DNA from: Narcine bancroftii
Lineage: Eukaryota
Length of the DNA stretch: 64,000 nucleotides
Assembly (NCBI RefSeq): GCF_036971445.1
Contig: NC_091473.1
Coordinates: 211,730,001 to 211,794,000 of the forward strand
Direction of reading: 5' to 3'
Shown here: one piece after another, positions 28,549 to 62,079 of the stretch
Layout: each line of letters starts with the position of its first letter
How positions within the stretch are numbered: the stretch's first letter is position 1
Program-made: the position numbers and the translations under genes
Notes under the pieces: generated by a model
The model's input: only the letters and a program-made list of their open reading frames with translations
Told to the model about the DNA's origin: nothing
Databases searched by the model: none

Positions 28549-28578
28549 TTCAAAACCCTCCCTATTATGGTGCCTTAT

Positions 28579-29640: not shown

Positions 29641-29920
29641 GTCTGTGAGAGGCGCTGCCTTCAGCAGCGAACGAGTCGCAGTCTATGAGAAGCGCTGCCT
29701 TCAGCAGCGAACGAGTCGCAGTCTATGAGAAGCGCTGCCTTCAGCAGCGAACGAGTCGCAGTCTATGAGAAGCGCTGCCTTCAGCAGCGAACGAGTCGCA
29801 GTCTATGAGAAGCGCTGCCTTCAGCAGCGAACGAGTCGCAGTCTATGAGAAGCGCTGCCTTCAGCAGCGAACGAGTCGCAGTCTATGAGAAGCGCTGCCT
29901 TCAGCAGCGAACGAGTAGCA
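29641..29920. repeat. 40-bp tandem array, 7 copies
   Basis: Unit gtctatgagaagcgctgccttcagcagcgaacgagtcgca. Confidence 0.97.
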
Positions 29921-30826: not shown

Positions 30827-31215
30827 TGTAAGCTCATTAAAATACAATAAGAACTGAATAAAACACAAAAAATGTAAAGATCATTGAAAACTGCAATAAA
30901 ACACAATAAGAACTGAATAAAACACAAGAAATGTAAAGCTCATTGAAAACTGCAATAAAACACAATAAGAACTGAATAAAACACAATAAATGTAAAGCTC
31001 ATTGAAAACTGCAATAAAACACAATAAGAACTGAATAAAACACAATAAATGTAAAGCTCATTGAAAACTGCAATAAAACACAATAAGAACTGAATAAAAC
31101 ACAATAAATGTAAAGCTCATTGAAAACTGCAATAAAACACAATAAGAACTGAATAAAACACAATAAATGTAAAGCTCATTGAAAACTGCAATAAAATACA
31201 ATAAGAACTGAATAA
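30827..31215. repeat. 59-bp tandem array, ~6.5 copies
   Basis: Unit tgtaaagctcattgaaaactgcaataaaacacaataagaactgaataaaacacaataaa. Confidence 0.95.
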
Positions 31216-31271
31216 TCAAAAGACAAGTAAAAAAAAAACAACAATAACTGAATAATCATAAAAAAATAACA

Positions 31272-34200
31272 TTACGGCACTTTGTCACGGCGCAGTGTAA
31301 GTTTCAGGTCTGATGGATAAGGAACTGCACGCCAGGTTGGGGTTTGAATCTGTGTGTCGTGGTGTTGTGGTTCAGAAGCCGGTTTAACCCTTTGAATGTG
31401 GGTCCAGCCTTTTTCTCTTGTTCTTACTGCGGTGTCTGTAATTAAAAGTACACAGAAGGGACCATCCCAGGCAGGTTTTAGTTGATCTTCTTGCCATGCT
31501 TTTATATAAACCCAATCTCCAGGTTTAATAGAATGTATAGGAAAGTCTAAGGGTGGTGTTTGGGCTAAGAGTCCTTTTTGCTTTAAATCTTGGATGGAAG
31601 TAGAAAGTCCTCGTAGAAATTTAGAAATGTATTGGTCATTAGCTTCAGGAATGGGAGAATCAGTGTGATATCCCATAAATGGGAGTCCAAACATCATCTC
31701 ATACGGTGAGACTGCGAGGTCTTTACGAGGTGCTGTCCTAATTCTAATCAGCGCTAACGGCAATGATTTAATCCAGGACAGACCAGTCTCTTCATGAAGT
31801 CGAGTGAGTTGGAGTTTCAATGTTTGATTCATACGCTCGACTCGCCCCGAGCTTTGGGGATGCCATGGGGTATGTAGTTGCCATTCTATTCCTAAGCTCT
31901 TGCAGACACCCTGTAGAATCTTAGAGGTGAAATGCGTACCTCTATCTGAATCAATGGTCTGCATCATACCGTATCGTGGAATGACACATTCAATAAGTAT
32001 TCGGATGACAGTGTTGGCACGATCATTCGGGGTAGGAAAAGCTTCAACCCATCTTGTGAAATGATCGACCATGACAAGGAGGAATTTGTAAATACCAATC
32101 TTAGGAAGTTCAGTAAAGTCTATCTGTATGCGCTGGAACGGGCGGACGGCAATGTCGCGACCGCCAGGTATTACTTGGCGCATCGATTTCTTATTAATCC
32201 TTTGACAAATGGGACAAGATCGAGTAGCAGATTTAGTAATATTGTATATGCCAAGGCAGTGAAGGGAACGTGTAAAAGCATCTATAAGGGACTGGGTTCC
32301 CCAATGTGTTTGTTGATGTAACTGATCTATGATTTGGCGGGCTATGGCTTTGTTAATAACTTGCCGTCCGTCTGCTGTCCACCACAACCCGTCGGCAGTC
32401 TGGCAAAATCCTTGATCTCTCATTGCAACCTCTTCTTCCCGTGTAAAGATGGGATTCTTTTTAATCTCTATTGACGTGGGTAGGAGCTGGTATAAATGAA
32501 TCCTTTCTGCTAATGCCGCCTGTTTGGCAGCTGCATCAGCCTGCCTGTTTCCTCTAGCTTCAGGACTGTTACCAGTCTGATGTCCACGTACATGTACAAT
32601 GGCAATATCGGACGGGAGTGCTAAAGCCTCTAGGGATCGGGTGATCAACTGTTCGTGAGCTAACTTTTGTCCTTTGCCAGTTATCATCCCCCTTTCCTTC
32701 CATATCTTACCGAAGGTGTGGACTACACCAAAAGCATATTTAGAATCAGTGTAGATCGTTCCTACCTTGTTTTCTAGTTCGTGGAGTGCTCTACAGAGGG
32801 CATATAACTCACAGGATTGTGCTGACCAATGGCCGGGGAGGCGACCAGCTTCGATCACAAGTCCCTGTTTACCGTCCACTACGCTATACCCGCTATAGCG
32901 GGTACCTGCAATACAACGTGAAGAACCATCAATAAACAGTTTTTCCCCTTCAGTTAAAGGGACATCGGTTAGGTCTTCCCTAATTTTTGTCTGTAAGTCG
33001 ATAACCTCTGAGCACGAATGTTCTAAAGTGTCCAAAGGCTGGTCATTAGCTGGGGAGATGAGGAAGGTTGCTGGGTTGAGAGTTTTGGTTGTAATTAAGG
33101 TCAAATCATTGCTGTCCATTAAGATCGTTTCGTATTTTAGGATTCTCGAATCCGTGAGCCACCTTCCAGCCCGCTGTAATAGAATATTGCGGACTGTATG
33201 AGGGGTATGCACTGTCATAGGGGCACCGAAAGTAATCTTTCGTCCTTCCTCTACCAAAATTGCAGTGGCTGCGACGGCTTGTATACATTCTGGCCAGCCG
33301 CGACAAACGGGGTCTAAAAGTTTTGACAGGAAAGCCACCGGTTGTCTATAGCCAGCCTTGCTCTGTGTGAGCACACCGGTGGCTGTTCCAGCTTTGGTAT
33401 TAGTGTACAAATCAAAGGTTTTGTTTAGATCTGGCAACACTAAAACTGGGGCACTCGTTAGGCATCGTTTAACAAAGTTGAATTTTTCAATCTCTTCATC
33501 CGTCCAGTCAAGGGTTTGGGATGTTACACTGGAAATCTTGTCATAAAGAAATTTGACCAGAATCGAATAATTCTCTATCCATATTCTACAGAATCCCACT
33601 AACCCAAGGAATTTCCTGAGTTCTTGAGTATTTTTGGGAGGGGGGATCTGTATAATACCAGTTATTCTTTCTGGGCTAATTTTCCTGGTTCCTTGACTAA
33701 CTAGATGACCTAAGTATTTGACCTCAGTTTGCACAAATTGTAATTTAGACTCACTGACTCTCAGACCTTTCTTCTCCAGAAAGTTTAAAAGTGCCACTGT
33801 GAAATCTTTAGCTAATTCCTGTGTTCTTGCAGTAATTAGCAAGTCATCCACATACTGTATGAGTTGGCAATTTTCAATCTTAGGAGCTTCATCTAATACC
33901 CGCTCTAAGACTTGACCAAATAAATTGGGTGATTCGGTAAAGCCTTGGGGAAGGACTGTCCACCGGTATTGGTTTTTACGGCCAGTAAAGGGGTTCTCCC
34001 ATTCAAAGGCGAACATGTCTCTGCTTTCTGTGGCCAATGGACAAGTCCAGAATGCATCCTTTAAATCAATGACACTAAACCATTGATTATGGGAGTCAAT
34101 TTTACTCATGATGGTATACGGGTTGGGTACAACCGGGTGACGGGCAAGAATGAATTTGTTAAGCTCTCTCATGTCCTGTACTAGGCGGTAAGTGCCGTCT

Positions 34201-34820
34201 GGCTTTTGAACAGGTAAAATCGGGGTATTAAAGGGAGACATACAGGGTTCGAGTATACCGTCTTGAATCAACTGGTCAATTACGGGCTGTAATCCTTTCC
34301 GGCCAGCCATCGGGATTGGGTACTGTTTCTGTCTAACAATTCGTTGAGGATCTTTTAGCGTGACTTGTAGCGGAGGAATATCAAGGATTCCTCTATTTCC
34401 CTTCCCTGCCCATACTCTTGGGTTTATCAGTTTGCGATCTTCTTCGTTTAAAACATAGAATTGAACTCCAATGCCTGATTGTAGAGGTCGAGTACCGATA
34501 GCCAATTGGTCCTGTAGATCCCTCCCTAGCAAGCATACTCCGGCTTGGGGAAGTAATAGAAGATCCTCAGTTATGATCTTATCTCCCATTTTTATACTGA
34601 CTTCTCGCAATACTGGGACTGGAAAGTCTCTACCTCCTACCCCAGAAACTGTGACTGTCCCTTCTATTTTCACCCCCTTCGGTTGGTATAGAACGCTAGA
34701 TCGGGCAGCTCCAGAATCGACCAGAAATGTCATCTTATCCCCGTGAGGTCCTATGCATAAATTAACTAACGGTTCTCCTTGCAGCCCCACAGTATGTATT
34801 AATTGAGAACCGTGACCCCC
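31272..34820 (-). CDS. pol: ERV-B Pro-Pol (PR-RT-RNase H-IN), expressed by readthrough
   Basis: Open frame of ~1182 codons with FLVDSGA, LPQGFTESP, YVDDLL, FIDGSS, YTDSKY, HHCC (LHQQTHWG...CPIC), IDFTE/DSDRG/GRVE. In frame with gag across one TAG. Confidence 0.97.
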   Translation of the reverse strand, partial: GGHGSQLIHTVGLQGEPLVNLCIGPHGDKMTFLVDSGAARSSVLYQPKGVKIEGTVTVSGVGGRDFPVPVLREVSIKMGDKIITEDLLLLPQAGVCLLGRDLQDQLAIGTRPLQSGIGVQFYVLNEEDRKLINPRVWAGKGNRGILDIPPLQVTLKDPQRIVRQKQYPIPMAGRKGLQPVIDQLIQDGILEPCMSPFNTPILPVQKPDGTYRLVQDMRELNKFILARHPVVPNPYTIMSKIDSHNQWFSVIDLKDAFWTCPLATESRDMFAFEWENPFTGRKNQYRWTVLPQGFTESPNLFGQVLERVLDEAPKIENCQLIQYVDDLLITARTQELAKDFTVALLNFLEKKGLRVSESKLQFVQTEVKYLGHLVSQGTRKISPERITGIIQIPPPKNTQELRKFLGLVGFCRIWIENYSILVKFLYDKISSVTSQTLDWTDEEIEKFNFVKRCLTSAPVLVLPDLNKTFDLYTNTKAGTATGVLTQSKAGYRQPVAFLSKLLDPVCRGWPECIQAVAATAILVEEGRKITFGAPMTVHTPHTVRNILLQRAGRWLTDSRILKYETILMDSNDLTLITTKTLNPATFLISPANDQPLDTLEHSCSEVIDLQTKIREDLTDVPLTEGEKLFIDGSSRCIAGTRYSGYSVVDGKQGLVIEAGRLPGHWSAQSCELYALCRALHELENKVGTIYTDSKYAFGVVHTFGKIWKERGMITGKGQKLAHEQLITRSLEALALPSDIAIVHVRGHQTGNSPEARGNRQADAAAKQAALAERIHLYQLLPTSIEIKKNPIFTREEEVAMRDQGFCQTADGLWWTADGRQVINKAIARQIIDQLHQQTHWGTQSLIDAFTRSLHCLGIYNITKSATRSCPICQRINKKSMRQVIPGGRDIAVRPFQRIQIDFTELPKIGIYKFLLVMVDHFTRWVEAFPTPNDRANTVIRILIECVIPRYGMMQTIDSDRGTHFTSKILQGVCKSLGIEWQLHTPWHPQSSGRVERMNQTLKLQLTRLHEETGLSWIKSLPLALIRIRTAPRKDLAVSPYEMMFGLPFMGYHTDSPIPEANDQYISKFLRGLSTSIQDLKQKGLLAQTPPLDFPIHSIKPGDWVYIKAWQEDQLKPAWDGPFCVLLITDTAVRTREKGWTHIQRVKPASEPQHHDTQIQTPTWRAVPYPSDLKLTLRRDKVP

Positions 34821-36485
34821 CTATTCGTGATCAGCTTCCATCAAGGCATAGGAACGTGTGTCCATTGCTCGCAGTGGGCAATCCTTTTTAAAGTGCCCTT
34901 CCTTTTTACAACGAAAACAAATGAGGGGTCCCGTTTCCCAATCTTTCCCAAAACTTCTAGGGGGCATACATCGTCCCCGGAATCCTCCTCTACTCCTCCA
35001 TCTGCTGGGGTCTCCACCTCCCCACCCTTGGCTCCCTTCTTTTTGGTGGTGGTCAGCTACTATTCCTTTAACTGTCTGTAATAGAATTTTAGCTTTCCCT
35101 TTTTGTTTATCCTCTGCCCTCTGTACAAATGCTCTCTGAGCAATCTGTAGTAACTGAGTAATTCCTTGCTCATGCCAATTTTCTGTCTTTTGTAACTTTC
35201 TTCGGATGTCTGGGGCTGAGTTGGTAACGAAACCCGTTAGAACCAATTGTTCCCCTGCTGGGGATTCTATGTCGAGACCCCCGTATTGTTGAATTGCCGT
35301 GCGCAGTCGATTGAGAAATGCAGAGGGGGTCTCCTCAGGACCTTGGGGAACCTCAAAGGCTTTTTTAAAGTTTTGTCCTTTGGGGACAGAATCCTTGATT
35401 CCTCTGATCAAATTTATCCTATACTCATCCATCAGTGCGCGGCCAGCACTGGTATTTTTGTCCCAATTAGGTTTTGTGAGAGGGAATTTGGCTTCTCCAG
35501 GGATCGCCTCGTGTCCCCCTTGGTGTTCCTTATCCCATGCTTTGATGCCTGCCTGTCGGATCATTCCCCGCTCATCTAAGGTAAACAAGGTTTTAAATAT
35601 GGCTGTTAATTCCTCCCAAGTATACAAATTTGGTCCCAAAAATTGGTCTAACTGTTCGGCACATCCCTGGGGATCTTCTATCAGGGAGATTAATTCTTTC
35701 TTAAAATTACGTACTTCAGTTCTGGTCAGGGGCACATTTACGAACCCAAGACCTTCTCCTACAGGAACCTCCCGTAGGGGTCGCATCCAGCTAATTTCTG
35801 GTTTCTTTGATTTGTTTTCCTGTTCCCTGAGGAATACATCGCAAGGTTCTGCCATTTCTTCCTGAGGGGTCTCACGCTGTTCGGAGTAACAATGCTCTAC
35901 CTCTACTGTTAACGGGGGTGGTAATCGAGCGCTTTGTGAGCGAGTCACCATACCACTCCGGTTCTCTTCTCTCTTCTCTAGTGGTATGGGAGGAGGAGGG
36001 GGAGGTGCAGAAGGGTAGGCAATAGGAGGGGAAGGAAAGATAGGAGCCGGCATAGGAGGAACATAAGGTGGAGGGAGGGAATGTAACACATCCCAACCCT
36101 GTGGTTCAGGGACAAGAGGTTCCTCCTCTCTCTTATTCCTGAATTCTTTCTCATTCAAAACCAGCTGTTCAATGGATCCCTTGAGCCAGCAGGCTGCATA
36201 TTCCCTGCTCTCAACATTGTCGGGCTGGTTTTGATAGAGCCATAAGTTCAAAGCTTCACACATCCATTCATCCTCGGATCCGAATTTTGGCCAGTACACG
36301 GAGCTCCCTTTAACCGGGTATCTCACCCATTCATTACAACAATACCTGACCATCGTCAGTTTGTCTTTACCGCGGGTCTTTCCTGTGCCCCACTCAGATA
36401 ACATCATCCCAAGCGGGCTGTACGTAGCTATCTGGTGGTCACGTCCTGTGTCAGGACTCTCATCTCTACTGCCCGCTATTCCCAT
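34821..36485 (-). CDS. gag: ERV-B Gag (554 aa)
   Basis: MGIAGS myristoylation consensus, PPPY and PSAP late domains, MHR QGPEETPSAFLNRL, zinc knuckle CFRCKKEGHFKKDC. Ends in TAG-GGG-GGT. Confidence 0.97.
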   Translation of the reverse strand: MGIAGSRDESPDTGRDHQIATYSPLGMMLSEWGTGKTRGKDKLTMVRYCCNEWVRYPVKGSSVYWPKFGSEDEWMCEALNLWLYQNQPDNVESREYAACWLKGSIEQLVLNEKEFRNKREEEPLVPEPQGWDVLHSLPPPYVPPMPAPIFPSPPIAYPSAPPPPPPIPLEKREENRSGMVTRSQSARLPPPLTVEVEHCYSEQRETPQEEMAEPCDVFLREQENKSKKPEISWMRPLREVPVGEGLGFVNVPLTRTEVRNFKKELISLIEDPQGCAEQLDQFLGPNLYTWEELTAIFKTLFTLDERGMIRQAGIKAWDKEHQGGHEAIPGEAKFPLTKPNWDKNTSAGRALMDEYRINLIRGIKDSVPKGQNFKKAFEVPQGPEETPSAFLNRLRTAIQQYGGLDIESPAGEQLVLTGFVTNSAPDIRRKLQKTENWHEQGITQLLQIAQRAFVQRAEDKQKGKAKILLQTVKGIVADHHQKEGSQGWGGGDPSRWRSRGGFRGRCMPPRSFGKDWETGPLICFRCKKEGHFKKDCPLRAMDTRSYALMEADHE

Positions 36486-36689
36486 ACTTAGGAACAAGTA
36501 AAATACTCTTACCGAGTTCTGGCAGTACTGCTCTAGCGCGCGTCCTTCCGCCGTTTGTTCTCATTGCCTCTTCTCGGATATCACTCGCTTCTTCCACTGA
36601 CCAGCCACCCGTCGCCCGTGAGTCCAGCTGAATCAGCCGGGGTGCACCTACTCTCGTCGTCGGGGCACTCTGTCAGTGGAGGGAGTGTG

Positions 36690-36707
36690 ATCCCGGACGA
36701 GCCCCCA
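36690..36707 (-). other. Primer binding site, tRNA-Pro
   Basis: TGGGGGCTCGTCCGGGAT, 2 nt from the 5' LTR. Confidence 0.95.
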
Positions 36708-36709
36708 TT

Positions 36710-37399
36710 TGTTAGGAATTAAAGTACCTTTAAAGAAATTGCTCGAGACAAAAATTGAGAACAAAGAACATTTATTACTACAACAATGCAAAGTTGGGTG
36801 CTTCCCCTTACCCTGGGAATACACACACATACTGGGGCTCACCCAACTTTTATACAGTCAATTTCAGCATCAGAATGCCCTCCCCCCTTACATTCTTCTG
36901 CCCCCTGGATGGGTTTGGCATAGGCAATTCTTCCTGCCTACGTGCAACTTCAGTATACTTGGAGGACCAGGGGGTATCCTGTCGGTGTCCCTTCATGTTA
37001 TTGTCCTTATTCACACCTTCCTGATTCTCGGGGCTACAGTCTCTTGATATGCAGAGTTGACTCATTCTATCTAGGGTTGGCTAATTTCATATGTATAAAT
37101 CTGTGTATGGTTAGCTAATTAGAAATGTATGACTTGGTACTTCTGTCCAGGGCTAGGAGACCCTTATCTGATCCAGACTACCTCAACTTCCTACATTCTA
37201 TTGTACCTTACCATTCCTTATCTTAGTCCTATGGTCTTGTCACAAAGGATAGAAGATTCTTATGTTAATCGTGCTGACTCTGCTTTCCTGCATCCTAAGC
37301 CCCAAACTTATCCTGTTTGAACTGGTTTCAGCCATTTTACTGATGAACTTTAGTTTCTTCAATGTTCATAATTTTAGGTCAATTTTCCCATCTCTCACA
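36710..37399 (-). repeat. ERV-B 5' LTR
   Basis: Adjacent to the PBS; TATA (tataaaa) and AATAAA on the minus strand. Confidence 0.97.
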
Positions 37400-45395: not shown

Positions 45396-47607
45396 ATGCA
45401 GTGTGAGATGGTGGGGTCATTCTCTACCTCACCTCTGGACACAATTTGATAGAGGGGCATCATTCTGTACCTGTGACCTCTGGTTAGCGTGTGCGGGCGG
45501 ACAAGAAGTTCAAACGGTTTAAAAGGTGATAATCCTGCAGTGTTCATACTAAACGCTGAACTTTATTTACACACGACACAAATATGCAACACACATACCC
45601 ACATGGACACCTGTAATGCCCTGATAGAAGTGAACTAAACTGTATCCATGTTATTTCGGCGCTTCCGTGTATTTACTTCAGGTCCAGCGGCTGCAGTTGC
45701 TTGTATTTCTCTGATTGACACCCGTCCGCACGCTGCAGCTGTCAATCTGTTCAAAGAGCGCGGCTAACGGAAACGGGTGACTATTAGGAGCTGTTGTATG
45801 TGACGTCATTTCCTGCTGCCCACCAGTCTCCATTTTGAAGCGGAGTCAATGCCTATCGTGCATTCTTGTCCTTCAGGTTCCACTTCCAGGATTGTGTGTT
45901 CTTCCCCACCACCTCACTCTGTCCTCACTCGGCTTCCGGACTCCACAGGTTTCCGCCTCTGCCGTTTTTGCACCCACACACAGCCATGCTATGGGGATCA
46001 GGAGGAGCACTAGCAGGGCTCCCCAGGGTCCTAAGTAATCAGTGAGCTAGTCACCAGGGAATGATTTTCCTGCATTTTTAAATGGGCCGAATGTATCTCA
46101 TTGTTTGCAAATCATTGATTTCATTTGAAATGTTATCTTCTCAATCTGGAATCGGCGTCAACACCTGTCAAATTTAGTTGTTTTTTTAATTATATGATTG
46201 AGCACTGAGGACTGCAGTGGAACAGGGATCTCGGAATTCAGATACATAATTCGCTGAAAGTATTGTCACAAGTGGATTAGGTTGTAATCTCTTTTGATCC
46301 ATTGGGATCTCTTTTGGAGAAGGCATGACCTTTACAAGAAGGATGGGTTACACCTAAACCCAAAAGGGATCAATATATTGGCAGCTAGGTTTGGTACAGC
46401 CGTCGGATGTGGTTTAAACTAATTTGGCAGGGGGGTGGGAATCTGTATGATAAGGCAAAGGACAGATAAGATAAAATAGGAAAAGTTGGGTTAGGCAGCG
46501 AAAGTAAAAAAAATCAGAACGAGCAAGGAGGGTGAGAAAAGCAAATCTGAAGGCTTTATATCTTAATGCAAGAAGCATTCGGAACAAGGTAGATGAATTG
46601 GCTGTGGAAATTGAGACAAACATATACGATTTGATTGGGATTACAGAAACATGGTTGCAAGGTGGGCAAGCCTGGGAACTTAACATCCTGGGGTATACAA
46701 TATTTAGGAGGGATCGGCAAGAAAGAAAATGGGGTGGGGTAGCATTGATGGTGAGAGAAGGGACCGACACAATTGACAGGAAGGATATTAACTCGGAAGA
46801 TGCGAAATCTATATAGTGTTGGAATCTAGGGGTTAAAACAGTATGAAATAAATGATTAATCAATAAGTTTATTTGTACTGCATGAGTCAGGGAAAGAGGA
46901 ATGTGGCTAAGTGGCTGTCACAGCATGGAGCAAAGTTGGCTGAACAAAATTGGCTGCTCCCAAGATACAGGGAGAGGATATGCATAAAACGATTTAGGAG
47001 GAATGCTCAACTGAAGGAGGTGGGAAGTAGCACAGGAGACACAGGCCAGATCAGAACAAAGAATGGCCCGCAAGAATCAAAGGGAATGGAAAACCAGTCT
47101 AGGAGGAAGATTAAGGCACGAGGAGGTGTTAAAGAGAACAGCAGAAATTGGCCAGACAGGGACCGAATGGTGATTAGAAATATCTGGGGATGAATTAATT
47201 TCAGATCTAAACAACAGGATAGTCTGGCCTGGAGGATTAACATGGGAATGCTACACCCCAGAAATCTGCAAAACAGGAGATGACTTGTGATAACCCTTAT
47301 GCAAAAAGATCTAGCAGGGAAAACAACTTTTGTTCTGTGTGATAAGATTGACCTATATAAACTGTGCCAACTGGACAATAGGGGTCAGTCTCGGGGAGTA
47401 GCTCACTGGCAGGTGACCTATGAACTAACAGACTGACCCAGAGCTCTGTTAAGTTTTATTCTTGTGCTGTGCTGTGCTGTGTGGTGTAATAAACTGACTG
47501 TTGAACCGAATACCTTCTCCTATCACTTCATTCAACGAACGCGCTGGACTCAGTTCACACATAGACTAAATTAAGAGTAAATAAATTAAAGCCAGAGTCC
47601 AACAATT

Positions 47608-47625
47608 TGGTGACCCCGACGTGAT
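47608..47625 (+). other. Primer binding site, tRNA-Trp
   Basis: TGGTGACCCCGACGTGAT. Confidence 0.95.
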
Positions 47626-47819
47626 GAAGATGGAGAAGTGACGGAAGAAAAGATACGAAACACCGGTCGATTGTGGTGTGATAATAACAACAAGTGACCA
47701 TTCAACAGAGTGAGGTAAACAGACGCCTGTTCAAACGAAGTTCTGCTATTGGCAAAGATAAAATTGTGTGTTGTCACTACTCTGCAAAAGACCTAGTTAA
47801 AGACAAGAATAAAACAAAA

Positions 47820-48205
47820 GGAGGTTGGAATCCCTCTACGGAGGTTGAGGTCCCTCTAGGAAAAGGAGATTGGAATCCCTCTACGGAGGTTGAGGTCCCT
47901 CTAGGAAAAGGAGGTTGGAATCCCTCTACGGAGGTTGAGGTCCCTCTAGGAAAAGGAGGTTGGAATCCCTCTACGGAGGTTGAGGTCCCTCTAGGAAAAG
48001 GAGGTTGGAATCCCTCTACGGAGGTTGAGGTCCCTCTAGGAAAAGGAGGTTGGAATCCCTCTACGGAGGTTGAGGTCCCTCTAGGAAAAGGAGGTTGGAA
48101 TCCCTCTACGGAGGTTGAGGTCCCTCTAGGAAAAGAAGGTTGGAATCCCTCTAAGGAGGTTGAGGTCCGGTTGGAATCCCTCTAAGGAGGTTGAGGTCCC
48201 TCTAG
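47820..48205 (+). repeat. 45-bp tandem array (~8 copies) in the ERV-C leader
   Basis: Unit gaggttggaatccctctacggaggttgaggtccctctaggaaaag, itself made of two related half-units. Confidence 0.96.
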
Positions 48206-48269
48206 TAGAACGGGGTTGGAGCCCCTTGTAGCAATCTCGAGAGGTAGATTTAGACACTTGGCCAAGTAG

Positions 48270-48470
48270 TATAAGGTGTATGGGGTTATAGTTATTTGTT
48301 TCTATAGTGTGTAATAAGTATTTGTTTAAGAATCGTGTACCATAGTAGTGTATAATAAGTATCCGTATAAGGTGTATTGTGTTATAGTTATTTGTTTCTA
48401 TAGTGTGTAATAAGTATTTGTTTAAGAATCGTGTACCATAGTAGTGTATAATAAGTATCCGTATAAGGTG
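48270..48470 (+). repeat. ~96-bp tandem duplication in the ERV-C leader
   Basis: tataaggtgtat...taataagtatccg occurs twice. Confidence 0.9.
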
Positions 48471-48878
48471 TTCGGCATTTAACTGTTTTTTCATGCACGC
48501 TGGTATTGTTGCTGTGTATATCACTGTATTACTCTCGATGTTTTAAGTATTCTGAAAAAGGGGCAGCAGAGGTTACAGATTGTACTGTTTTACAGGGTAG
48601 AGAGGGCATAGAGGCAAGGTATTTAGAATACGGATCAGGGAAACACAGTGGGGATAGGCAGTCACACAGTGAGGCATCAGTGTACACAGACTAACCGCAA
48701 AACAAACAATGTACATTTCACACAAAGGGGGAAACTAACAAGCTAACCGCAAAACAAACAATAGACACTTCACACAACCACGAGACACATAATCCCCCAC
48801 CTGGCTCTCTCTCTGATCATCCCTGAAGGGGAACACCTGTTTTCAGGGAGCTGCTGGTCATCTGGTGGTTATAATAAC

Positions 48879-50412
48879 GTGGAAAGGGGCGAAGTAGAGT
48901 GCAGGGTGTCAAAATCCTACCAGGAGAGAGAGCCAGGGAGTACGAGGTCTAAAGGGATAAAAATCAGAACAGAGATGGAAGGAGTAATAAGGGATGTAGG
49001 GCAAGAGTTCGGGGAAGACAGAGGAGTTCCCCCATCTGTAGACAGACAGTGGGAAAATACAAGGAATCAATTACTGGGAGGATGGCCGAAGGGAGAGGAA
49101 GGACAGGCTAGGGAACGGTACGAACAGATTTGGAAAGAGCTGCAGAGTCAGGGGAAGGTACCACGAGGGTTTGAAAAAATCCGGCTGTTACTGTACTTAG
49201 GAGAAGCAGAGAGGGAAGCATGATCACACACAGAAGACAGGGTCAGGAGAACCCTCGCTTCCCTGTGGGATATGCGTTGCGGGAAAGGGGGGAAGTACGG
49301 CTTCCAGAAAGATATAGACAGATGCCGCTAATTTATGAGGGTCCGCAAATTGGGGAAAGGTATCAACCCTTCTCATTCACTGACATGAATTGTATTTTGG
49401 ACAAAATGCCACCTCCGACTGAGGGAGGTGGAGCGTGGATGGGAAAGTTCTGCCAATTTACGATGGGACATAAGATAGCCATAGGGGATTGGAGAGCATT
49501 ATTGGGGAAACAGCTTGGGCTGTGGGAGATTCAGCAGGTAGAAATGATCGCAGGAATCACTAGGTGCCTCGATGCTGAGCCATTTGCCAACCATGCTACG
49601 GCAATAGGAGGGGCAATGCGGGATAAGTTTCCCGTTCCCCCCGGTGTCATGCAGTCCCTGACTTTTTCCATAAAGGATGATGAGGAGATCTCTACTTTTT
49701 TGAGTCAGTGTAAGGAGAATTGGACCAATAAAGCAGGAGTACACCCGGCCGCAGATCCCTTGCAGACTACTCTCTTTAGGGCTGCAGTAACAAGCGGACT
49801 GCCAGCTGTTGTGAGGGAGACGTTAGATAATAACCCTGATATTCCTGGCTGCTCGAATGAGCAATGGGAAAAATATTTGACCAATCACCTGAAACGTTAC
49901 AGGGCTAAGCAAAAGGAGGACAAACAAACTACGGAGTCTGGCAACTCCTTAAGCTTCAATTGGCAGAGGCTAGGCAAAAGGCAAATGAGGAAAAAAAGAT
50001 TTCCTCAAAGGGTGCGAACCAGATGATTCAGCAGCCACCGCAGCCACCACAAGGGAATGATACTAATTGGCACCCGGCCCCATATTGGGCACCGGGTCCC
50101 ACCGATGGGGGCAGAATGGGAGGTCCAATGGGGGGATTCCGAGTAAGAGGGAGAGTTCGGAGTGCTCCACGAAGGCAGCCAGCCGTATGTTTTGGATGCG
50201 GTCAGCCAGGAAACTTGAAGAGAGACTGTCCCCTAGTTTGGGAGCCTCGGGACCCGGGGGCAAGGGGCTATGGACCACCACAACAGGAGCCTTGGGTCCA
50301 GCCCCAGAGATCGTCAGTGCCACCCCCGGTACATCAGGCACCCTATGCGGCTCTAGCTCCGAGGAGACAATTCCCTTTGCTGACAGAGGAGGAGCAATAT
50401 TGCCCACAGTGA
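48879..50412 (+). pseudogene. gag: ERV-C gag (frameshifted)
   Basis: YQPFSFTDMNCILDKMPPPTEGGGAW..., degenerate knuckle CFGCGQPGNLKRDC; ends TGA-CGG in frame with pol. Confidence 0.85.
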
Positions 50413-53294
50413 CGGAGCCCGAGTACCCACGAGCAGGCTAGGTTGGCAGACCCTTTCCTGCAGATGAAAGTCATGGACATGAAAGTATCCTTTTTAGTGG
50501 ATACAGGAGCCAGGTTTTCAACACTCACTGGCGCTGAGTTTCAAGATAAAACATCATCCTCTAGCGTCCAGCTGATAGGGTTCTCGGGTACACCAGAAAA
50601 TCTGCCGTTTTCTACACCACTAGTCACTTCTGTGGCAGGACAGACTTTTACACATCAGTACATTTTGTCAGCCAGGTGCCCTACCAATCTCTTGGGCAGA
50701 GACCTGTTGGTCAAGTGCGGAGCATCGATCCTTTGTGGACCCAGCGGAATACAGGTCACCTTTCCAAATGGATATTCTATGAACTGTTCAGTAACTACAC
50801 TGCATTCCGGTTCTCAGATGTTGTTGGCGGCAGCTGGAGGATCCGCGTCTGAGGGACAATGGGCTATCATTTACTGGGGGTTGTTGCAACCAGAGGACCC
50901 TCAGAAGGGGGGGCTGCTAAAACTTTATAATCAATGGAAGCCGCGGATCCAGACGTTACACCCGTATACCCCTCCCTCGGACCCTCCCCATATGACCCTC
51001 TTTTACGATAGGGATGGGGATGAAATGTATCAGCATGCCTTTTATGAAGAGGTAGAGGGCAGGCAATGGGAAATTAATTCGGACTACATAGTGATAGGAA
51101 AGGAGGGAGTGGCCGCTGCGGTGGCACTGACATCTGAACAGCTGGAATGGTATGAGATGGCAGGTGAGGCCATTCCTCATGTCACCCTTGCAATTGGCAC
51201 TACTCATCAGGCAAAAGATTTGGGACCGATGTGTCGGAACTTGAAGTCCCTAAGGGACTGGTCTGACACCCAAATACCGACAGTGCAGTTCTCCTCATCT
51301 GGTCAGGCATACAGAATTTTGTCTCCGACACATGATCAAGTCCTCCTTGAGCATAGACAGATTGAACGCTTTCATGGTAGAGAGAAGATGGATCACCCCG
51401 ACTCGGCCCCTATGCTAGATTCTCTCCCTGAGAACCTGTGGTCAGTGGGACCAGCAGATGTGGGTTTTTGTCAGCAGGTTGATCCCATAACCTTCGAACT
51501 GTCAGATTTCACCCCTATTTGGCAGATGCAGTATCCCCACAAACCTGATGCTGAGGAAGGTTTGGCAAAGACCATTGATGGCCTTAGGTATTCAGGGGTG
51601 TTGGAACATTCGCGTTCTAGTTGGAATACACCCATTTTACCGGTTCCTAAACAAGACACGGGCAAATATCGGATGGCCCATGACTTAAGGCGCATCAATG
51701 GTATTGTGAGTACACCCACAGTTCCAGTACCAAACCCATATACTGCCATGACTGCTTTAACCCCCAACCACAAGTGGTTCTCTTGCATTGATTTAGCGAA
51801 TGCTTTCTTTTGCTTGCCGCTGGCAGAACCATTAAGAGATGTGTTTTCATTCACGTATAGAGGAAGAAAGTTGCGGTATACTAGGCTTCTGCAGGGCTTT
51901 ATCTTATTTCCAGGAATTTTTAATCAGGTATTGAAAGAACAGCTGAGGGGGCTAGCACTGCCAGGTGGGGTTGTTCTGATCCAGTATGTAGATGACATCC
52001 TATTAGCTGCACCTGATCCCACTTCCTCTTTGGAGGCCACCTGCCTCCTGCTGGCGCAGCTGTTCAAGGCAGGCTTTAAAGTCTCTCGCTCAAAGCTGCA
52101 ATGCTGCAGACAGGTGGTCACTTTTTTAGGCAGAATGGTCTCAGCGAAAGGCACAGGGATTTCCCCGGCACATTAAACACTAATACTACATCATCCACGA
52201 CCAAAGACAGTTAAGGAAATGCTTTCCTTTTTGGGTTTGTCAGGGTATAGTAGGCAGTTTATCCCATCGTATGGTGAGTTAACACATCCACTGCGAACCT
52301 TGGTGAATGAGCAGGGGATGAGAAATCTGGGAGCTACTCTTGAGTGGACTGCACAGGCTGAGAGGAATTTTATTCTATTAAAGCAAGCTCTTACAACAGC
52401 TATAGATTTGACTATTCCAAATTATAAACTACCTTTCTTTTTGGATGTTTCTGAAAAAGCACACACAATTGATGGTGTTCTTTTTCAGAAAAAAGGGGGT
52501 GGAAGATGTGTGCTCATGTATGGGAGTATCACACTAGACCCAACGGAAGACAGACACCCACCATGTACAAGACATGCAGCAGGAGTAGCAAAGATTCTAC
52601 AAAAGGTGGCACACATAGTAATGGGACATGGCCTGACAGTATTAACAACACATAGTATTGTAGCATTTGTGAGCTCCACAGCATTTACAATGACTTCGTT
52701 AAGGCAGACGAGACTAGAAAAGATCCTGAATGCTCCAAATGTCACGTTTACCCATGAAGGCATTAACATGGCAGAAAATAGTGGAGAGGATGAACCAAAC
52801 AATAAAAGGTAAGATCGGGAAAGTACAGGCACGGACCAAACTAAATTGGGTGGATGCGTTGCCTCTGGCATTAATGTCAATAAGGAGTTCGGTAAGTTCT
52901 GTGACAGGATTCACTCCATATGAACTACGAACGGGGCACCAGTTCCCGGGACCGGGAGCCGGAAGTCAGACTACGAAGAATGAGGTAAGTTCAATGGGAT
53001 GCAAGCTGTATTATGATAAACTAACGGCTCTGGTGTCAGATTTTTCACAACAGGTCACAAGTCCCAACAGAGAAGGGGAAACACCGATACCTTCAGTCGC
53101 GGAGTGGATTCTGCTAAAGGTCATCAAGAGAAAGTGGTCGGAGCCCAGGTGGACAGGACCCTACCGAGGGGTGGAGAGGACGTCCCACGCGGTTCGACTA
53201 CAGGGAAAAGGCGAGACGTGATATCATTGGAGTCAGTGTGCAGCCACGGACCCACCAGCACGGACACTGGAACAGATTCGTACGGCGGCGACTG
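50413..53294 (+). pseudogene. pol: ERV-C pol: PR - 2H domain - RT - tether - [deletion] - IN C-terminal part
   Basis: FLVDTGA, PHMTL...PHVTL, YVDD, stop at 52174-52176. Jump at ~52775 to VERMNQTIK...WTGPY. Confidence 0.92.
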
Positions 53295-53379
53295 AGAACC
53301 TGTGAGCAACTACGGACTAAGAACTTTCTGAACGGGTCCCTTTAAAGAACATATTGGACTCCGGGGACTGTTGATGGTA

Positions 53380-53753
53380 GAATCTATTGTTGTTTAAAAA
53401 TCGATGACAATGGGCAAGCAGTAAAGGAGATTTCTTCAGGTATTCGCAAATTAGCTCACGTTCCGGTTCAGACCTGGCGACCCTTGGGCAGCGCATGGCT
53501 GGGAAATTTGTTCTCTGGAGACTGGGGATGGATACATACTATAGTGCTAGTTGCTGGATTTGTGGTTTTGGCGTTGATTCTGATCCCATGCATCCTTCCC
53601 TGCCTCCAGTGCCTCATTCAACGAGCGCTGTCACAGAGAGACATCCCCAGACCCCAAGGCATGTATTTGTCCCTACTGCCCTCTCAAGAGTGTAATGATT
53701 ACAAGGGATCAGAAATGCCAACCCTGGCATGTAACCCGGATTTCTCTATCTAA
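53380..53753 (+). pseudogene. env: ERV-C env remnant (TM C-terminus only)
   Basis: [30 protein letters not shown] followed by a TM helix (ERV3-type). Confidence 0.88.
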
Positions 53754-55471
53754 TAAGTTAACTGGTGGTTGGTCTCATTTTCATGAGACCAAAAGGGGGA
53801 CTGTTGGAATCTAGGGGTTAAAACAGTATGAAATAAATGATTAATCAATAAGTTTATTTGTACTGCATGAGTCAGGGAAAGAGGAATGTGGCTAAGTGGC
53901 TGTCACAGCATGGAGCAAAGTTGGCTGAACAAAATTGGCTGCTCCCAAGATACAGGGAGAGGATATGCATAAAACGATTTAGGAGGAATGCTCAACTGAA
54001 GGAGGTGGGAAGTAGCACAGGAGACACAGGCCAGATCAGAACAAAGAATGGCCCGCAAGAATCAAAGGGAATGGAAAACCAGTCTAGGAGGAAGATTAAG
54101 GCACGAGGAGGTGTTAAAGAGAACAGCAGAAATTGGCCAGACAGGGACCGAATGGTGATTAGAAATATCTGGGGATGAATTAATTTCAGATCTAAACAAC
54201 AGGATAGTCTGGCCTGGAGGATTAACATGGGAATGCTACACCCCAGAAATCTGCAAAACAGGAGATGACTTGTGATAACACTTATGCAAAAAGATCTAGC
54301 AGGGAAAACAACTTTTGTTCTGTGTGATAAGATTGACCTATATAAACTGTGCCAACTGGACAATAGGGGTCAGTCTCGGGGAGTAGCTCACTGGCAGGTG
54401 ACCTATGAACTAACAGACTGACCCAGAGCTCTGTTAAGTTTTATTCTTGTGCTGTGCTGTGCTGTGTGGTGTAATAAACTGACTGTTGAACCGAATACCT
54501 TCTCCTATCACTTCATTCAACGAACGCGCTGGACTCAGTTCACACATAGACTAAATTAAGAGTAAATAAATTAAAGCCAGAGTCCAACAATAGGTAGAAC
54601 TGAGGAATAGCAAGGGGTGGAAAACGTTAGTGGGGGTGGTATATAGGCCTCCAAATAGTAATGTAGAGGTGAGGGAAGGCATAAAAAGAGAAATTAGAGA
54701 AGTGTGCAATAAGGGAACAGCTGTCATCATGGGAGACTTTAATTTACATATAGATTGGACTAGCCAAATTAGTAAAAATACTGAGGAGGAGGAATTCCTT
54801 GAATGTTTAAGGGACGGTTATCTAGACCAATATGCCGAGGAACCAACTCGGGAGCAGGCTATTTTAGACTGGATATTATGCAATGAAATCAGCAATCTTG
54901 TTGTACCCTTTGGGTAGGAACGATCACAATATGGTCGAATTCTCACTCGACATGGAGAGTGAAGAAATTAAAACCGAGACTAAGGTCCTGAATTTAAATA
55001 AAGGGAATTATGATGGTATGAGATGGGAGTTGAGTAAGATCGATTGGGTGGTGTCTAAGGGTGGGTTAACGGTGAATAGACAATGGAAAGCATTCAAAGA
55101 TCTAATGGAAGAATTGCAGAAATCGTTGGCATAAAAATAAACCAAAAAAGGTGACTCAACCATGGATAACAAGGGAAATTAGAGACAGCATTAGGTCCAA
55201 AGAGAGAGCATATCAATTGGCCAAAAAAAGTACCAAATCCGAAGATTGGGAATAGTTCAAGATGCAGCAAAGGAGGACAAAGGGATTAATCAAGAGGGCA
55301 AAAATAAATTACGAAAGTAAGCTTGCGGCAAACATAAAAACCAACTGCAAAAGCTTTTATAGATATGTCAAGAGGAAAAGATTGGTGAAATCTAGAGAAG
55401 GTCCCTTGCAGTCAGAATCAGGGGAATATATAATGGGGAATAAGGAAATGGCAGACCAATTAAATTCTTAC

Positions 55472-58213: not shown

Positions 58214-61200
58214 TGTGAAAAATGATTGAAAGTGATTGAACTCGCACCATTCTGTGATGGAATGCAAAGTATGTAGATTAGAGCTTGAGAGTAGACAGTA
58301 CTAGCTAGTGGGCCCCTTCTTATCTCGAGCCCCAAGGATGCAAGGATCTGGTTCAGGCTGGTACAGTGACCTAAGGTAGTCTATAGCTAGTACTGTGCTT
58401 GCTTAATAGAGACATGAATATTAACTTCAACGCCCCTAAGGAGGGAATGAACTAATTAACATAACATGCGATGTATGAAGAGGGAGTGATACCTGGATTG
58501 ATGGAAGGGAGAAGGAGAATGTTGTAATGTATTGGGATTCTGATTGGAAGAAGGTAAATGAAGGTGGGGTGATGTTGAGCGTGGGACTGTACAAAGGAGT
58601 GATGATTCTGAACCTCCAGTGTGTCTTCATCCAAGGGGAGTTGCCCCTTGGATGAAAATAGTCGGGACTTGTTTGCATTCAAGTGGGAGGACCCTCACTT
58701 GAGAAGAGAACACCAGTATCGATGGACAGTCCTTCCCCCAGGGGTTTATAGAATCTCCCAATCTATTTGGACAAGTTTTAGAGCAAGTTTTAGAAGAACA
58801 CCCAAAGAACTACAGGAAAACAGTTAATACAGTATGTAGACGACCTGTTGATTTCAGGAAAATGAAGTTCGTAAATCCACCATTGAGTTGCCAAACTTCT
58901 TGGGAGAGAACAAATTGCAATTCATGGAACAGGAAGTAAGGTATTTGGGACACTTGATTAGTCAAGGGAAAAAGAGAATCGGACCTGAACGAATTGCTGG
59001 TATCACCCGTCTGCCTATACCTAAAAATCAGAAGGAGATAAGGAAGTTCCTCGGATTAATCGGGTATTGCCGACTGTGGATAAATAGATATACACAGAAA
59101 GTCCGATTCTTAGATGAAAAACTGGGAAGCGAAAAAGAAAATGTGGAGTGGAACCTAGAGGAACAGCAGGAATTTAATCGCTTGAAGAAAGACTTGATTA
59201 ATGCTCAGGTCCTGGCTTTGCTTGATATTAATCAGCCTTTCCACTTGTTTGTAAATGTGAAAAAAGGGATAGCTTTGGGAGTGCTAGCTCAGAAAAGAGG
59301 AGGCCAGAGGCAACCTGTGACATTCCTCTCAAAAATGTTGGACCCAGTGTCACGAGGGTGGCCGGAATGCATTCAAGCAGTAGCAGCCATGGCAACATTA
59401 GTGGAAGAAATCAAAAAATTTTCCTTTGGAGGGAGTCTGGTTGTATTCACTCCCCACACTGTCAGAACCATTTTAACTCAGAAGTCTCACAGATGGTTGA
59501 CAGACTCGAGAATTTTAAAGTATGAGGCAATCTCAATGGAAAGAGATGACTTAACGATTAGATGGGAAGAAATAGAGTGGATATGCTATCATTGATGGAG
59601 TTACCGGAACCGAAGTGGAAACTGGGCGTCTACCCGGCAGCTGTTCTGCTCAGTCTTGCGAGTTGTATGCCCTAATGAGAGCCCTGGAACTGTTGGAAGG
59701 GCGGAAAGGTACCATATATACAGATTTGAAATATGCGTTTGGAGTGGTACACACATTTGGGAAAATTTGGAAAGAATGAGAGATGATAACAGCAAGAGGG
59801 ATGATAACAGACACTAATTGAAAAGACTTTAGAAGCATTAATCAAACCAGAAAGAATTGCCATAGTACATGTACCAGGACATCAGAAGGGGAACTCACTG
59901 ATAGCTCTTCTCAGAATTTGGACAGCCCCACGGCAAGAAATTAGAATATCCCCTTACGAGCTGTCATTTGGACTCCAATATTTGGGGCGGGTAGAAGGAA
60001 TACCTACAGTCAAATGTAATGCTGTGTTTTTAAGGAACTATTTATTGCCAGTCTCTTGTTCTCTTGCAGATTTAAAAACTAAGGGTCTGCTGGCACAGAG
60101 CCCTCCTCTGGATTTCCCTATCCACTCTGTGAATGCTGGTGACTGGGTCCTGATCAAATTGTGGTAAGAGGAAAAGCTTCCGCCCTGGTGGAACAGACCA
60201 TATCTAGACCATAGAAACAGCGGTCCGAACAAAAGAAAAGGGGTGGACACATGCTTCAAGAATAAAGGGACCAGTGGACCCACCACCTGCCACAGAAGGA
60301 AGGAAAGAGGAGTAAAAAGGGACAGAAAAGAAAACTACAATAATGAAACTTTTACGCTTACTATTTATACATATCATAGCTTTGCATGTTGAACCTAAAA
60401 ATTCTTTTATCTCTCTAATTATGCTAAGAACCAAAATCAAACAGATTGTTGGGTATGTGCGAAAATACCACATCATGGCAAGTCAGAAGCCCCCTTAGTA
60501 GCAGTCCCTCTCTCCCTACACAAATTATTTGATATATATATACCTTGCCCAACAACAGTGATCCAAGCACTGAAGATAAATACAATGGGTGGTCTATGCG
60601 ACCAAAACCAACCAAGTCAGCAACTACTCAGTCTGGAGTGTTGCTTCCTTTTGAGGAACCAACTAGGAGTTTCCAATTACATGCAGAATTGGACCATCGA
60701 ACGACTGTGAATCCCTCAGCCTGTAAATGGCACATATTGGGTGTGTGGGCGTAAAATTTATTCATGGTTACCCAGGGAAAAGGATTGTTGGAATCGGACA
60801 AAAGGGTTTAAATTGACCCATACCCCTAAAGTTGGAGTGGATGTTGTTACCTGGCCTATTTAGTTCCCCGTGTCCGTGTTCTTAACTAGCTAACTGTACT
60901 AGTCTCGTACCATGGGCAAAGCAAAAGAAGGGTGACTGAAGGCAATCGTCTCATGTGGACATTTTTTCCGACACATGGAGCCACACGAGATTCAAGAATT
61001 AGCAGCCACCCTAGATGAACTAGTAAATGATAAGGACCTGGCACTTGGGAAAGTCCAATCCCAAGTCCAGGCAATAACTACAGAAATTACATCCTCCAAA
61101 AACGCATGGCCCTTGATTTTATTTTATCAGAGAGAGGGGGGACTTGTGCTTTAATTGGCTCTGAATGTACACATACATCCCGGATGAATCAGCTAATATC

Positions 61201-62079
61201 TCGGATTTGGCGGTCCATATTAAAAAGTATAGAGAGAAGATCAGGGAGGCTGGAGACAAATATCAAAAAGGAGGTGTATGGGGAGATTGGAATTTCAGAG
61301 GTTGGGGGCATGGTTAATGCACCTTGCTATATATGGTTTAATGATTCTAGTGGGCTTATTTATTGGATTAGCCATCCTACAATGTTTTATCGCTAGATTA
61401 ATTTGCTCAGCTACTGGAGCGAAGCAGATGGTATTTTAAAAAAAACCCCATGGCAGATGAACAACGATAAATTCAACTCGTGTTACAACAATTTGAGGAA
61501 ACAAAAGATGAACAATAATGCAATTTAATCAGAAATACATGGTAATGAGAAAAAAGGAGTGAAAAATGGTTGAAAATGATTAAACTCGCACCATTCTGTG
61601 AAAAGTGATGGAATGCAAAGTATGTAGATTAGAGCTTGAGAGTAGACAGTACTAGCTAGTGGGCCCCTTCTTATCTCGAGCCCCAAGGATGCAAGGATCT
61701 GGTTCAGGCTGGTACAGTGACCTAAGGTAGTCTATAGCTAGTACTGTGCTTGCTTAATAGAGACATGAATATTAACTTCAACGCCCCTAAGGAGGGAATG
61801 AACTAATTAACATAACATGCAATGTATGAAGAGGGAGTGATACCTGGATTGATGGAAGGGAGAAGGAGAATGTTGTAATGTATTGGGATTCTGATTGGAA
61901 GAAGGTAAATGAAGGTGGGGTGATGTTGAGTGTGGGACTGTACAAAGGAGTGATGATTCTGAACCTCCGGTGTGTCTCCAGACCAGGGACTCCCGACTCT
62001 GCAGACTTGAAATAAAGCTGAACCTGTTCTCCAAGACTTTGTCTCCAGAGTAGTGATTATGAACACTTTATATTTCACA
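58214..62079 (+). mobile_element. ERV-D: older deleted class I provirus
   Basis: Truncated 5' LTR 58214-~58627 fused directly to RT (CPLDENSRDLFAFKWE). YVDD at ~58833. RH/IN remnants. env relic 60344-61500 (DCWVC; MALDFILSERGGTCALIGSEC). 3' LTR ~61558-62079. Flanks cctg/ccta. Confidence 0.9.

What the first reader, a model, noticed from the sequence alone, without database searches (positions are those of the whole stretch)
50860..51330. 2H-phosphoesterase domain between protease and RT in ERV-C Pol
Seen: an extra ~150-aa block absent from ERV-B Pol, with two intact HxT motifs 63 residues apart (PPHMTLFY, His at 50989; IPHVTLAI, His at 51178). Established: paired HxT/S motifs define the 2H superfamily; such domains have been noted in piscine retroviral polyproteins, and coronavirus NS2 and rotavirus VP3 2H enzymes cleave 2-5A to block OAS-RNase L. 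Inference: a virion-packaged enzyme that antagonises nucleotide second messengers (2-5A or cGAMP) or heals cyclic-phosphate RNA/tRNA ends. I know of no established function for it in fish ERVs.
Basis: partly seen in the sequence, partly recalled or inferred. Interest (0 to 1): 0.75.

Follow-up and report, generated by a model that had tools for sequence, protein, structure and literature searches.

The report
Cyclic-phosphate enzyme ahead of retroviral RT
A broken endogenous retrovirus of a ray carries, between its protease and reverse transcriptase, a conserved extra domain predicted to fold like the vertebrate enzyme CNPase; such domains have been noted in fish retroviruses since 2002, and this one likely opens cyclic-phosphate RNA ends rather than destroying the immune messenger 2-5A, though I found no test of its activity.

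Summary
Pol of the provirus at 46817-54589 has 207 more residues between protease and RT than the window's other provirus. The His codons are at 50989 and 51178. Both histidines are conserved in relatives (101 of 104; 100 of 106), and the domain is under purifying selection (dN/dS 0.10-0.49). The model (pLDDT 86) is a 2H fold of the CNPase branch: Z 16.5 against CNPase, versus 6.4-7.7 for NS2, VP3, AKAP18, Acb1 and poxvirus cGAMP PDE. It has a helix where CNPase has helix alpha7, which blocks the 2-5A-binding side. Both motifs are intact in 20 of 21 named proteins from ray-finned fish, which lost OAS-RNase L (PMC10400998). So the 2-5A idea is unlikely. The likely activity is 2',3'-cyclic phosphate to 2'-phosphate hydrolysis, with the domain probably staying on the RT N-terminus. 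Its role for the virus is inferred only. 2H/CNPase domains of fish retroviruses are already in print (Mazumder 2002 and Basta 2009, seen only as cited), and this scan reported the same domain in other genomes three times. New member of a known, untested kind.

The parts
46817..47604 (+). 5' LTR (788 bp, TG...CA), preceded by 4-bp target-site duplication ATAG
   Evidence: differs from the 3' LTR at 1 of 788 sites
47608..47625 (+). Primer-binding site; reads like the tRNA-Trp site (identity recalled, not from a call)
   Evidence: sequence
47771..48213 (+). 45-nt tandem repeats in the 5' leader
   Evidence: (family D2)
48765..50412 (+). gag region, split over three reading frames (broken); weak zinc-knuckle hit; ends in a TGA in frame with pol, the readthrough arrangement of gamma/epsilon-like retroviruses (established knowledge)
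50449..50730 (+). Aspartic protease (PF00077, E 1.1e-9)
50794..50856 (+). Linker predicted disordered (pLDDT <50); holds the likely protease/2H cleavage site (inferred)
50857..51363 (+). CNPase-type 2H phosphoesterase domain
50989..51006 (+). First motif H-M-T-L-F-Y: His230/Thr232 equivalents, and Tyr at the Phe235 base-stacking position
51178..51189 (+). Second motif H-V-T-L: His309/Thr311 equivalents
51211..51249 (+). Predicted helix starting 11 residues after the second His, at the position of CNPase helix alpha7; its Gly is in register with CNPase and conserved in 97 of 105
51403..52176 (+). Reverse transcriptase (PF00078, E 2.7e-20), starting about 12 residues after the 2H domain; the frame ends at a stop inside RT
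52177..53221 (+). Rest of pol: RT connection domain, then only the integrase C-terminal part (RNase H and most of integrase missing in this copy)
53346..53753 (+). Short remnant read as the end of env (hydrophobic, membrane-anchor-like stretch; no Pfam hit; assignment inferred)
53802..54589 (+). 3' LTR after a polypurine tract, followed by target-site duplication ATAG

Best explanation
This is a 2H phosphodiesterase domain built into the Pol of a fish-type endogenous retrovirus family, predicted to fold like CNPase and likely to hydrolyse 2',3'-cyclic phosphates to 2'-phosphate/3'-OH, most likely on RNA ends inside the particle or incoming core. Shown: position between protease and RT, conserved catalytic motifs, purifying selection. 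Predicted: CNPase fold with an alpha7-like helix, a disordered linker to the protease and no such linker to RT. Inferred from established retrovirus biology: made as Gag-Pol by stop readthrough and packaged. Inferred from the model: cut from the protease but left on the N-terminus of RT. Inferred only: that its job is to clear cyclic-phosphate ends left by host metal-independent RNases on primer tRNA, genomic RNA or RNA fragments, freeing a 3'-OH. Odds: about 0.8 for the chemistry, about 0.4 for this particular role.
For: Foldseek: all 50 PDB matches at E<=0.001 were counted, and all listed rows are CNPase/RICH. VIA over 48,161 chains: CNPase Z 16.5, rmsd 4.0, 169 aligned; next Z 8.4. Re-alignment: CNPase Z up to 17.6, rmsd 2.7, 165 aligned; the next family is a fungal RNA kinase entry, 6u05, at Z 12.1, rmsd 6.8 (that 6u05 is tRNA ligase kinase-CPD is recalled). 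Profile-profile against 17 fish CNPs: probability 94.5%, E 7.7e-8 over 86 columns, both motifs in register (75.8%, E 2.3e-5 with untrimmed profiles). ESM Atlas on homologue P0004: top hits are tRNA-ligase CPD clusters, PF08302, score 0.95-0.96. CNPase chemistry, Phe235 and alpha7: passages of PMC4643303 and PMC5283653. dN/dS 0.10-0.49 in 10 pairwise comparisons, similar to protease and RT. The domain sits at a constant spacing from the protease and RT motifs wherever those were found in relatives. Its last strand runs to residue 318, where the profile already aligns with the MLV RT N-terminus.
Against: No activity was measured. Identity to CNPase is only 12-18%. The Arg307 position is not conserved (Ala/Val/Ile), the Val321 position is Lys/Arg, and Tyr168 maps to Ile20 by ungapped extrapolation, so substrate preference may have shifted. 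No member reaches the Pfam CNPase cut-off (1 of 42 hits at E 0.011). The walleye viruses carry a similar fold in entries named Envelope polyprotein, so being fused to RT is not needed for the domain to be useful. Most retroviruses, including the window's other provirus, replicate without it. A 2'-phosphate next to the 3'-OH might itself hinder primer extension (not tested). pTM of the three-domain model is 0.55, so domain packing is unresolved.
Confidence: 0.6

Rival explanations
1. Same chemistry, immune purpose: the enzyme removes cyclic-phosphate RNA ends or 2',3'-cyclic mononucleotides that act as danger signals, so it dampens innate sensing rather than helping reverse transcription.
For: Cyclic-phosphate-ended RNAs are reported to signal through RIG-I/MDA5, NLRP3 and TLR8 (passage in PMC8406329). 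A similar fold occurs in walleye virus Env entries, away from RT. WDSV Env has a cytoplasmic loop of about 170 aa (PMC3185748 passage); that the domain lies there is my inference.
Against: The fixed position directly before RT across lineages about 38% identical points to a link with RT. TLR sensing is endosomal, while the enzyme would be inside the core or cytosol (established knowledge).
Confidence: 0.2
2. The domain cleaves 2'3'-cGAMP to blunt cGAS-STING sensing of retroviral cDNA, like Acb1 or avian poxvirus PDE.
For: Viral 2H enzymes have repeatedly evolved this activity (PMC11410667 passages). Host range does not exclude it, because fish have cGAS-STING (recalled, not tested).
Against: Z 7.7 to Acb1 and 6.5 to penguinpox PDE versus 16.5 to CNPase. 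[quoted passage not shown]
Confidence: 0.1
3. The domain is a 2-5A phosphodiesterase that antagonises OAS-RNase L, like coronavirus NS2 or rotavirus VP3.
For: Same superfamily. The host genome has two OAS-domain loci on C9, and cartilaginous fish have a functional pathway (PMC10400998).
Against: Viral 2-5A PDEs descend from AKAP7-like genes (PMC10835031 passages), and this domain scores Z 6.4-7.2 against them. In CNPase the 2-5A-binding side is blocked by alpha7. Both motifs are intact in 20 of 21 named proteins from 16 ray-finned fish genera, a lineage reported to have lost OAS-RNase L; I did not check those genomes myself.
Confidence: 0.05
4. The domain is an RNA-binding or structural module of RT (for example holding the primer tRNA), and catalysis is secondary.
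For: No disordered linker between domain and RT. CNPase binds RNA and lentiviral Gag (PMC5434554 passages).
Against: The best-conserved residues are the catalytic His/Thr/Ser and their neighbours, which points to catalysis.
Confidence: 0.05

Closest known systems
2H domains of fish retroviruses (Mazumder et al. 2002, as cited in PMC9503650) and CNPase-encoding epsilon-like ERVs of ray-finned fish (Basta et al. 2009, as cited in PMC4977317)
   Same: A 2H/CNPase-like domain in a fish retrovirus. The best viral structure matches are a 1072-aa entry Q2VF30_1 (E 2.5e-16, 32% identity; unnamed by the tool, recalled as salmon swim bladder sarcoma virus Pol) and walleye virus entries.
   Different: Here the host is a cartilaginous fish. 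Neither original paper was held, so I could not check whether they describe this protease-RT position or the alpha7 feature. In the walleye viruses the match is in entries named Envelope polyprotein.
Vertebrate CNPase catalytic domain (PDB 2xmi, 1woj; PF05881)
   Same: Fold over 165-169 residues (Z 16-17.6), both HxT motifs, aromatic at Phe235, alpha7-position helix and its Gly.
   Different: 12-18% identity, about 40 residues shorter, no N-terminal PNK-like domain, Arg307 and Val321 not kept, below the Pfam cut-off. The host keeps its own CNP gene on C24.
Fungal tRNA ligase cyclic phosphodiesterase (PF08302) and related RNA-healing 2H domains
   Same: Nearest clusters in the Atlas and the second-best structural family; these enzymes open RNA 2',3'-cyclic phosphates.
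   Different: No ligase or kinase domain is encoded here, so there is no complete repair pathway.
Viral 2-5A and cGAMP phosphodiesterases (MHV NS2, rotavirus VP3, Acb1, avian poxvirus PDE)
   Same: 2H superfamily, virus-encoded, two HxT/S motifs.
   Different: Different branch (Z 6.4-7.7); they lack alpha7.
Betaretroviral G-patch and retroviral dUTPase as accessory Pol modules
   Same: An extra module carried in the Pro/Pol region (G-patch papers seen in the search listing only; their position next to RT is recalled).
   Different: Unrelated fold and chemistry; an analogy only.

Membership tests
2H phosphoesterase superfamily | Two H-x-T/S-hydrophobic motifs | tested here: met
   H60 101 of 104, H123 100 of 106
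2H phosphoesterase superfamily | Two-lobed 2H fold | tested here: met
   the top 21 VIA rows (Z>=5) are 2H or 2H-like entries by title and recalled family
2H phosphoesterase superfamily | Metal-independent phosphodiester hydrolysis | not testable with these tools
   needs an assay
CNPase-type 2H | Closest fold is CNPase | tested here: met
   Z 16.5, rmsd 4.0, 169 aligned, vs next 8.4
CNPase-type 2H | Helix alpha7 after the second motif | tested here: met
   helix 134-145 starts at His+11; Gly in register; from a model, coordinates not inspected
CNPase-type 2H | Aromatic at Phe235 (base stacking) | tested here: met
   Tyr65: Y 89, F 5 of 105
CNPase-type 2H | Tyr168 ribose platform | tested here: inconclusive
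   range ends map it to Ile20; adjacent Tyr21 and Trp22 are conserved in 83 and 86 of 94
CNPase-type 2H | Arg307 and Val321 (affinity residues; mutants keep activity) | tested here: not met
   Ala/Val/Ile at His-2 and Lys/Arg at His+12; R307Q and V321A mainly raise KM
Vertebrate CNP gene family (PF05881) | Pfam cut-off and N-terminal PNK-like domain | tested here: not met
   best member E 0.011, 1 of 42; no PNK-like domain hit. So it works like CNPase but is not a CNP orthologue
AKAP7-derived viral 2-5A PDEs | AKAP7-like fold with an open 2-5A side | tested here: not met
   listed at Z 6.4-7.2, far below CNPase; alpha7-like helix present
AKAP7-derived viral 2-5A PDEs | AKAP7-derived sequence motifs (PMC10835031 Fig. 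2D) | not tested
   figure not held
AKAP7-derived viral 2-5A PDEs | Cleaves 2',5'-oligoadenylate | not testable with these tools
   needs an assay
Fish retroviral 2H/CNPase domains (Mazumder 2002; Basta 2009) | 2H domain inside a fish retroviral polyprotein | tested here: met
Fish retroviral 2H/CNPase domains (Mazumder 2002; Basta 2009) | Same position and lineage as in those papers | not testable with these tools
   papers not held

The most novel reading that the evidence does not exclude
A clade of fish retroviruses carries an extra Pol enzyme, a captured CNPase permanently fused to the N-terminus of reverse transcriptase. It heals 2',3'-cyclic-phosphate ends on nuclease-damaged primer tRNA or genomic RNA so that reverse transcription can proceed: RNA-end repair as a retroviral counter-defence, as in phage RNA repair systems.
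Probability: 0.25. Interest if true: 0.75.

Novelty: new member of a known kind. Interest (0 to 1): 0.33.

Why it matters
The domain itself is not new, but I found no paper testing it (searches; two recent viral-PDE surveys contain no occurrence of 'retrovir'). Placing it in the CNPase branch changes which assay to run first: cyclic-phosphate substrates, not 2-5A. Its retention in hosts reported to lack OAS-RNase L supports that. If it proves to be an RT-tethered RNA-end-healing enzyme, it would add an activity to the retroviral Pol toolkit. It would also bear on the open question of what CNPase's own physiological substrate is.

Tried and rejected
Sequence search of the PDB with the domain alone or a shallow profile found nothing relevant; the deeper profile hit only through flanking RT residues. 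Pfam gave only sub-threshold LigT/2-5 ligase hits (E 0.025-0.033), which would have mis-filed it as LigT-like; the structure corrected this. Viral contigs held no relative. RNase L in the host: the PF06479 search gave 3 matches at two loci, and the exon tested from each locus is IRE1. RNase L was therefore not detected, but an exon-by-exon search cannot show absence. Expression: no RNA holder listed; four runs only guessed to be RNA hold about half of the words, and contigs of two of them cover all 30 bins of the stretch, with many differences from this copy. That is no evidence either way. A tree to name the donor (host CNP versus another CPD) was not attempted, because 12-18% identity is too low. 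No complex prediction was run. Mazumder 2002, Basta 2009 and Paul 2006 were not held; their text or supplements may already state the position and CNPase affinity. Rows dropped: 63 of 169 hit proteins covered under 70% of the domain and were left out of the conservation count. One named teleost protein (P0029) lacks the second half of the domain and is the 1 miss in 20 of 21.

Full report
Setting. The window is from a 3.3-Gb vertebrate genome (G000). The host is a ray: its own CNP exon is identical to a database protein labelled as an electric ray, and the next hits are other rays and sharks. The finding lies in a provirus at 46817-54589. Its 788-bp LTRs differ at one site, and it has a 4-bp target duplication, a primer-binding site and a polypurine tract. 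This copy is broken: gag is split over three frames, the Pol frame stops inside RT, RNase H and most of integrase are missing, and only a short env-like remnant is left. The family is large and young: 1,697 candidates, of which the 150 scored are 94-100% identical over the domain and 5 of 150 have a stop in it (best scorers, so biased towards intact).

Observation. Confirmed. Protease (residues 13-106) and RT (411-573) are separated by a block with no Pfam hit above cut-off. Pol is 207 residues longer between DTGA and YxDD than in the window's other provirus. His codons are at 50989 and 51178. Two such motifs arise in 39 of 10,000 shuffles. I collected relatives by two word-indexed searches (13 and 14 hits) and one profile search (411 hits at E<=0.001, best 150 listed). 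Of 169 proteins hit by my domain profile, 106 cover at least 70% of it. Among them H60 is kept in 101 of 104, T62 in 95 of 105, H123 in 100 of 106 and T/S125 in 105 of 106. The domain sits at a constant spacing from the protease and RT motifs wherever those were found, and 15 of 16 long relatives scanned carry Pol domains. Mean pairwise identity among 24 Pol proteins is 38% in the domain, the same as protease (38%) and below RT (55%). Pairwise dN/dS between the window's copy and 10 other copies is 0.10-0.49 for the domain, 0-0.36 for protease and 0.13-0.30 for RT (small counts, pairs not independent). All 50 fetched copies of two families in this genome keep both motifs (chosen by score).

What it is. 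The AlphaFold model (24 sequences, pLDDT 86, pTM 0.81) matches CNPase. Every listed Foldseek row is a CNPase or RICH entry. In the Foldseek-independent search of 48,161 chains, CNPase scores Z 16.5 (rmsd 4.0, 169 aligned). The next is 8.4; Acb1 is 7.7, MHV NS2 7.2, AKAP18 6.8, rotavirus VP3 6.4-6.7 and penguinpox cGAMP PDE 6.5. Re-alignment gives Z up to 17.6 (rmsd 2.7), maps model residues 16-184 to mouse CNPase 164-378, and puts a fungal RNA kinase entry second at Z 12.1. Sequence profiles agree: ERV domain against 17 fish CNPs, probability 94.5%, E 7.7e-8, with both motifs and the stretch between them in register. The Atlas places a homologue next to tRNA-ligase cyclic phosphodiesterases. 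Passages of PMC4643303 and PMC5283653 name the CNPase determinants. His230/Thr232/His309/Thr311 have equivalents. Phe235 is matched by Tyr65 (aromatic in 94 of 105). Helix alpha7, described as unique to CNPase and as blocking the side where viral enzymes bind 2-5A, is matched by a predicted helix starting 11 residues after the second His. Arg307 and Val321 are not kept, and Tyr168 is uncertain. It is therefore a CNPase-type 2H domain, not a CNP orthologue by Pfam; the host keeps its own CNP gene.

How it most likely works. Gag ends in a TGA in frame with pol, so the domain would be made as Gag-Pol by readthrough and packaged (established retrovirus biology, not tested). A model of the whole open frame (34 sequences, pLDDT 87, pTM 0.55) has a disordered linker between protease and domain (residues 128-148), which holds a hydrophobic site resembling protease cleavage sites (inference). 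There is no such linker before RT. The domain's last strand ends at residue 318, the first RT helix starts at 331, and the profile aligns the MLV RT N-terminus over this junction. So the domain probably stays on RT. The likely chemistry is that of CNPase: one His activates water, the other protonates the leaving 3'-O, giving 2'-phosphate and 3'-OH. Metal-independent host RNases leave cyclic-phosphate ends on tRNA and other RNA (passages of PMC9503650 and PMC10275265). I infer that the enzyme clears such ends in the particle or core. Against a strictly RT-linked role, walleye virus entries named Envelope polyprotein carry a similar fold.

The 2-5A idea. The host has OAS loci and cartilaginous fish have the pathway (PMC10400998 passages), so the idea is possible for this host. 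But that paper reports loss of OAS-RNase L in the ancestor of ray-finned fish. Of 21 named proteins from 16 ray-finned genera, 20 keep both motifs. Together with the structural branch, and the AKAP7 origin of known viral 2-5A enzymes (PMC10835031 passages), this makes 2-5A unlikely (about 0.05). cGAMP is not excluded by host range (about 0.1).

Prior knowledge. PMC9503650 (passages) states that 2H domains occur in fish retroviruses including walleye dermal sarcoma virus, citing Mazumder 2002. PMC4977317 (passages) states that some epsilon-like fish ERVs encode CNPase, citing Basta 2009. The originals were not held. My literature searches (listings only) showed no functional test. PMC10835031 and PMC11410667 have no occurrence of 'retrovir'. 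The library omits most subscription journals. Three earlier notes of this scan describe the same domain in other genomes. I saw them after the structure searches and they agree; they are not independent support.

Verdict. A real, conserved, probably active CNPase-type domain; a new member of a known but apparently untested kind. Interest 0.33. The bold reading, an RT-tethered RNA-end-healing enzyme of retroviruses, has probability about 0.25 and would merit 0.75.

Noticed in passing
G000, loci L040-L049: A second high-copy ERV family in the same genome carries the domain at the same protease-RT position, only 36-37% identical to the window's, with both motifs intact in 10 of 10 fetched copies.
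   Followed up: partly
G000:C5:161431044-161446244: Four matches to the second family's domain spaced 4,879 bases apart, which looks like a tandem array of proviral sequence.
   Followed up: no
BFVD entries Q9WHI8 and A4GTG3: Walleye epidermal hyperplasia virus 1 and walleye dermal sarcoma virus entries named Envelope polyprotein match the fold (E 5e-10, 7.5e-9; 19-20% identity). The domain may have moved between pol and env or been captured twice.
   Followed up: partly
window 46500-46816 and 54590-54917: The provirus interrupts an endonuclease-like reading frame of a LINE (CR1-like by recall), with a 4-bp duplication; LTRs differ at 1 of 788 sites, so the insertion is recent.
   Followed up: partly
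G000 C9 and C24/C8: The host has two OAS-domain loci, but the RNase L-family search returned only IRE1 exons; RNase L may be missing or just missed.
   Followed up: partly
window 28578-37235 (minus strand): A second provirus with a Gag p30 hit and a Pol lacking the 2H domain; used here as the control.
   Followed up: partly
window 58254-61904: A third LTR-bounded element with an RT-connection fragment at 58852-59595.
   Followed up: no
protein P0024: A tilapia ERV Pol with this domain is named 'B-cell receptor-associated protein 31' by its source, apparently a mis-annotation.
   Followed up: no
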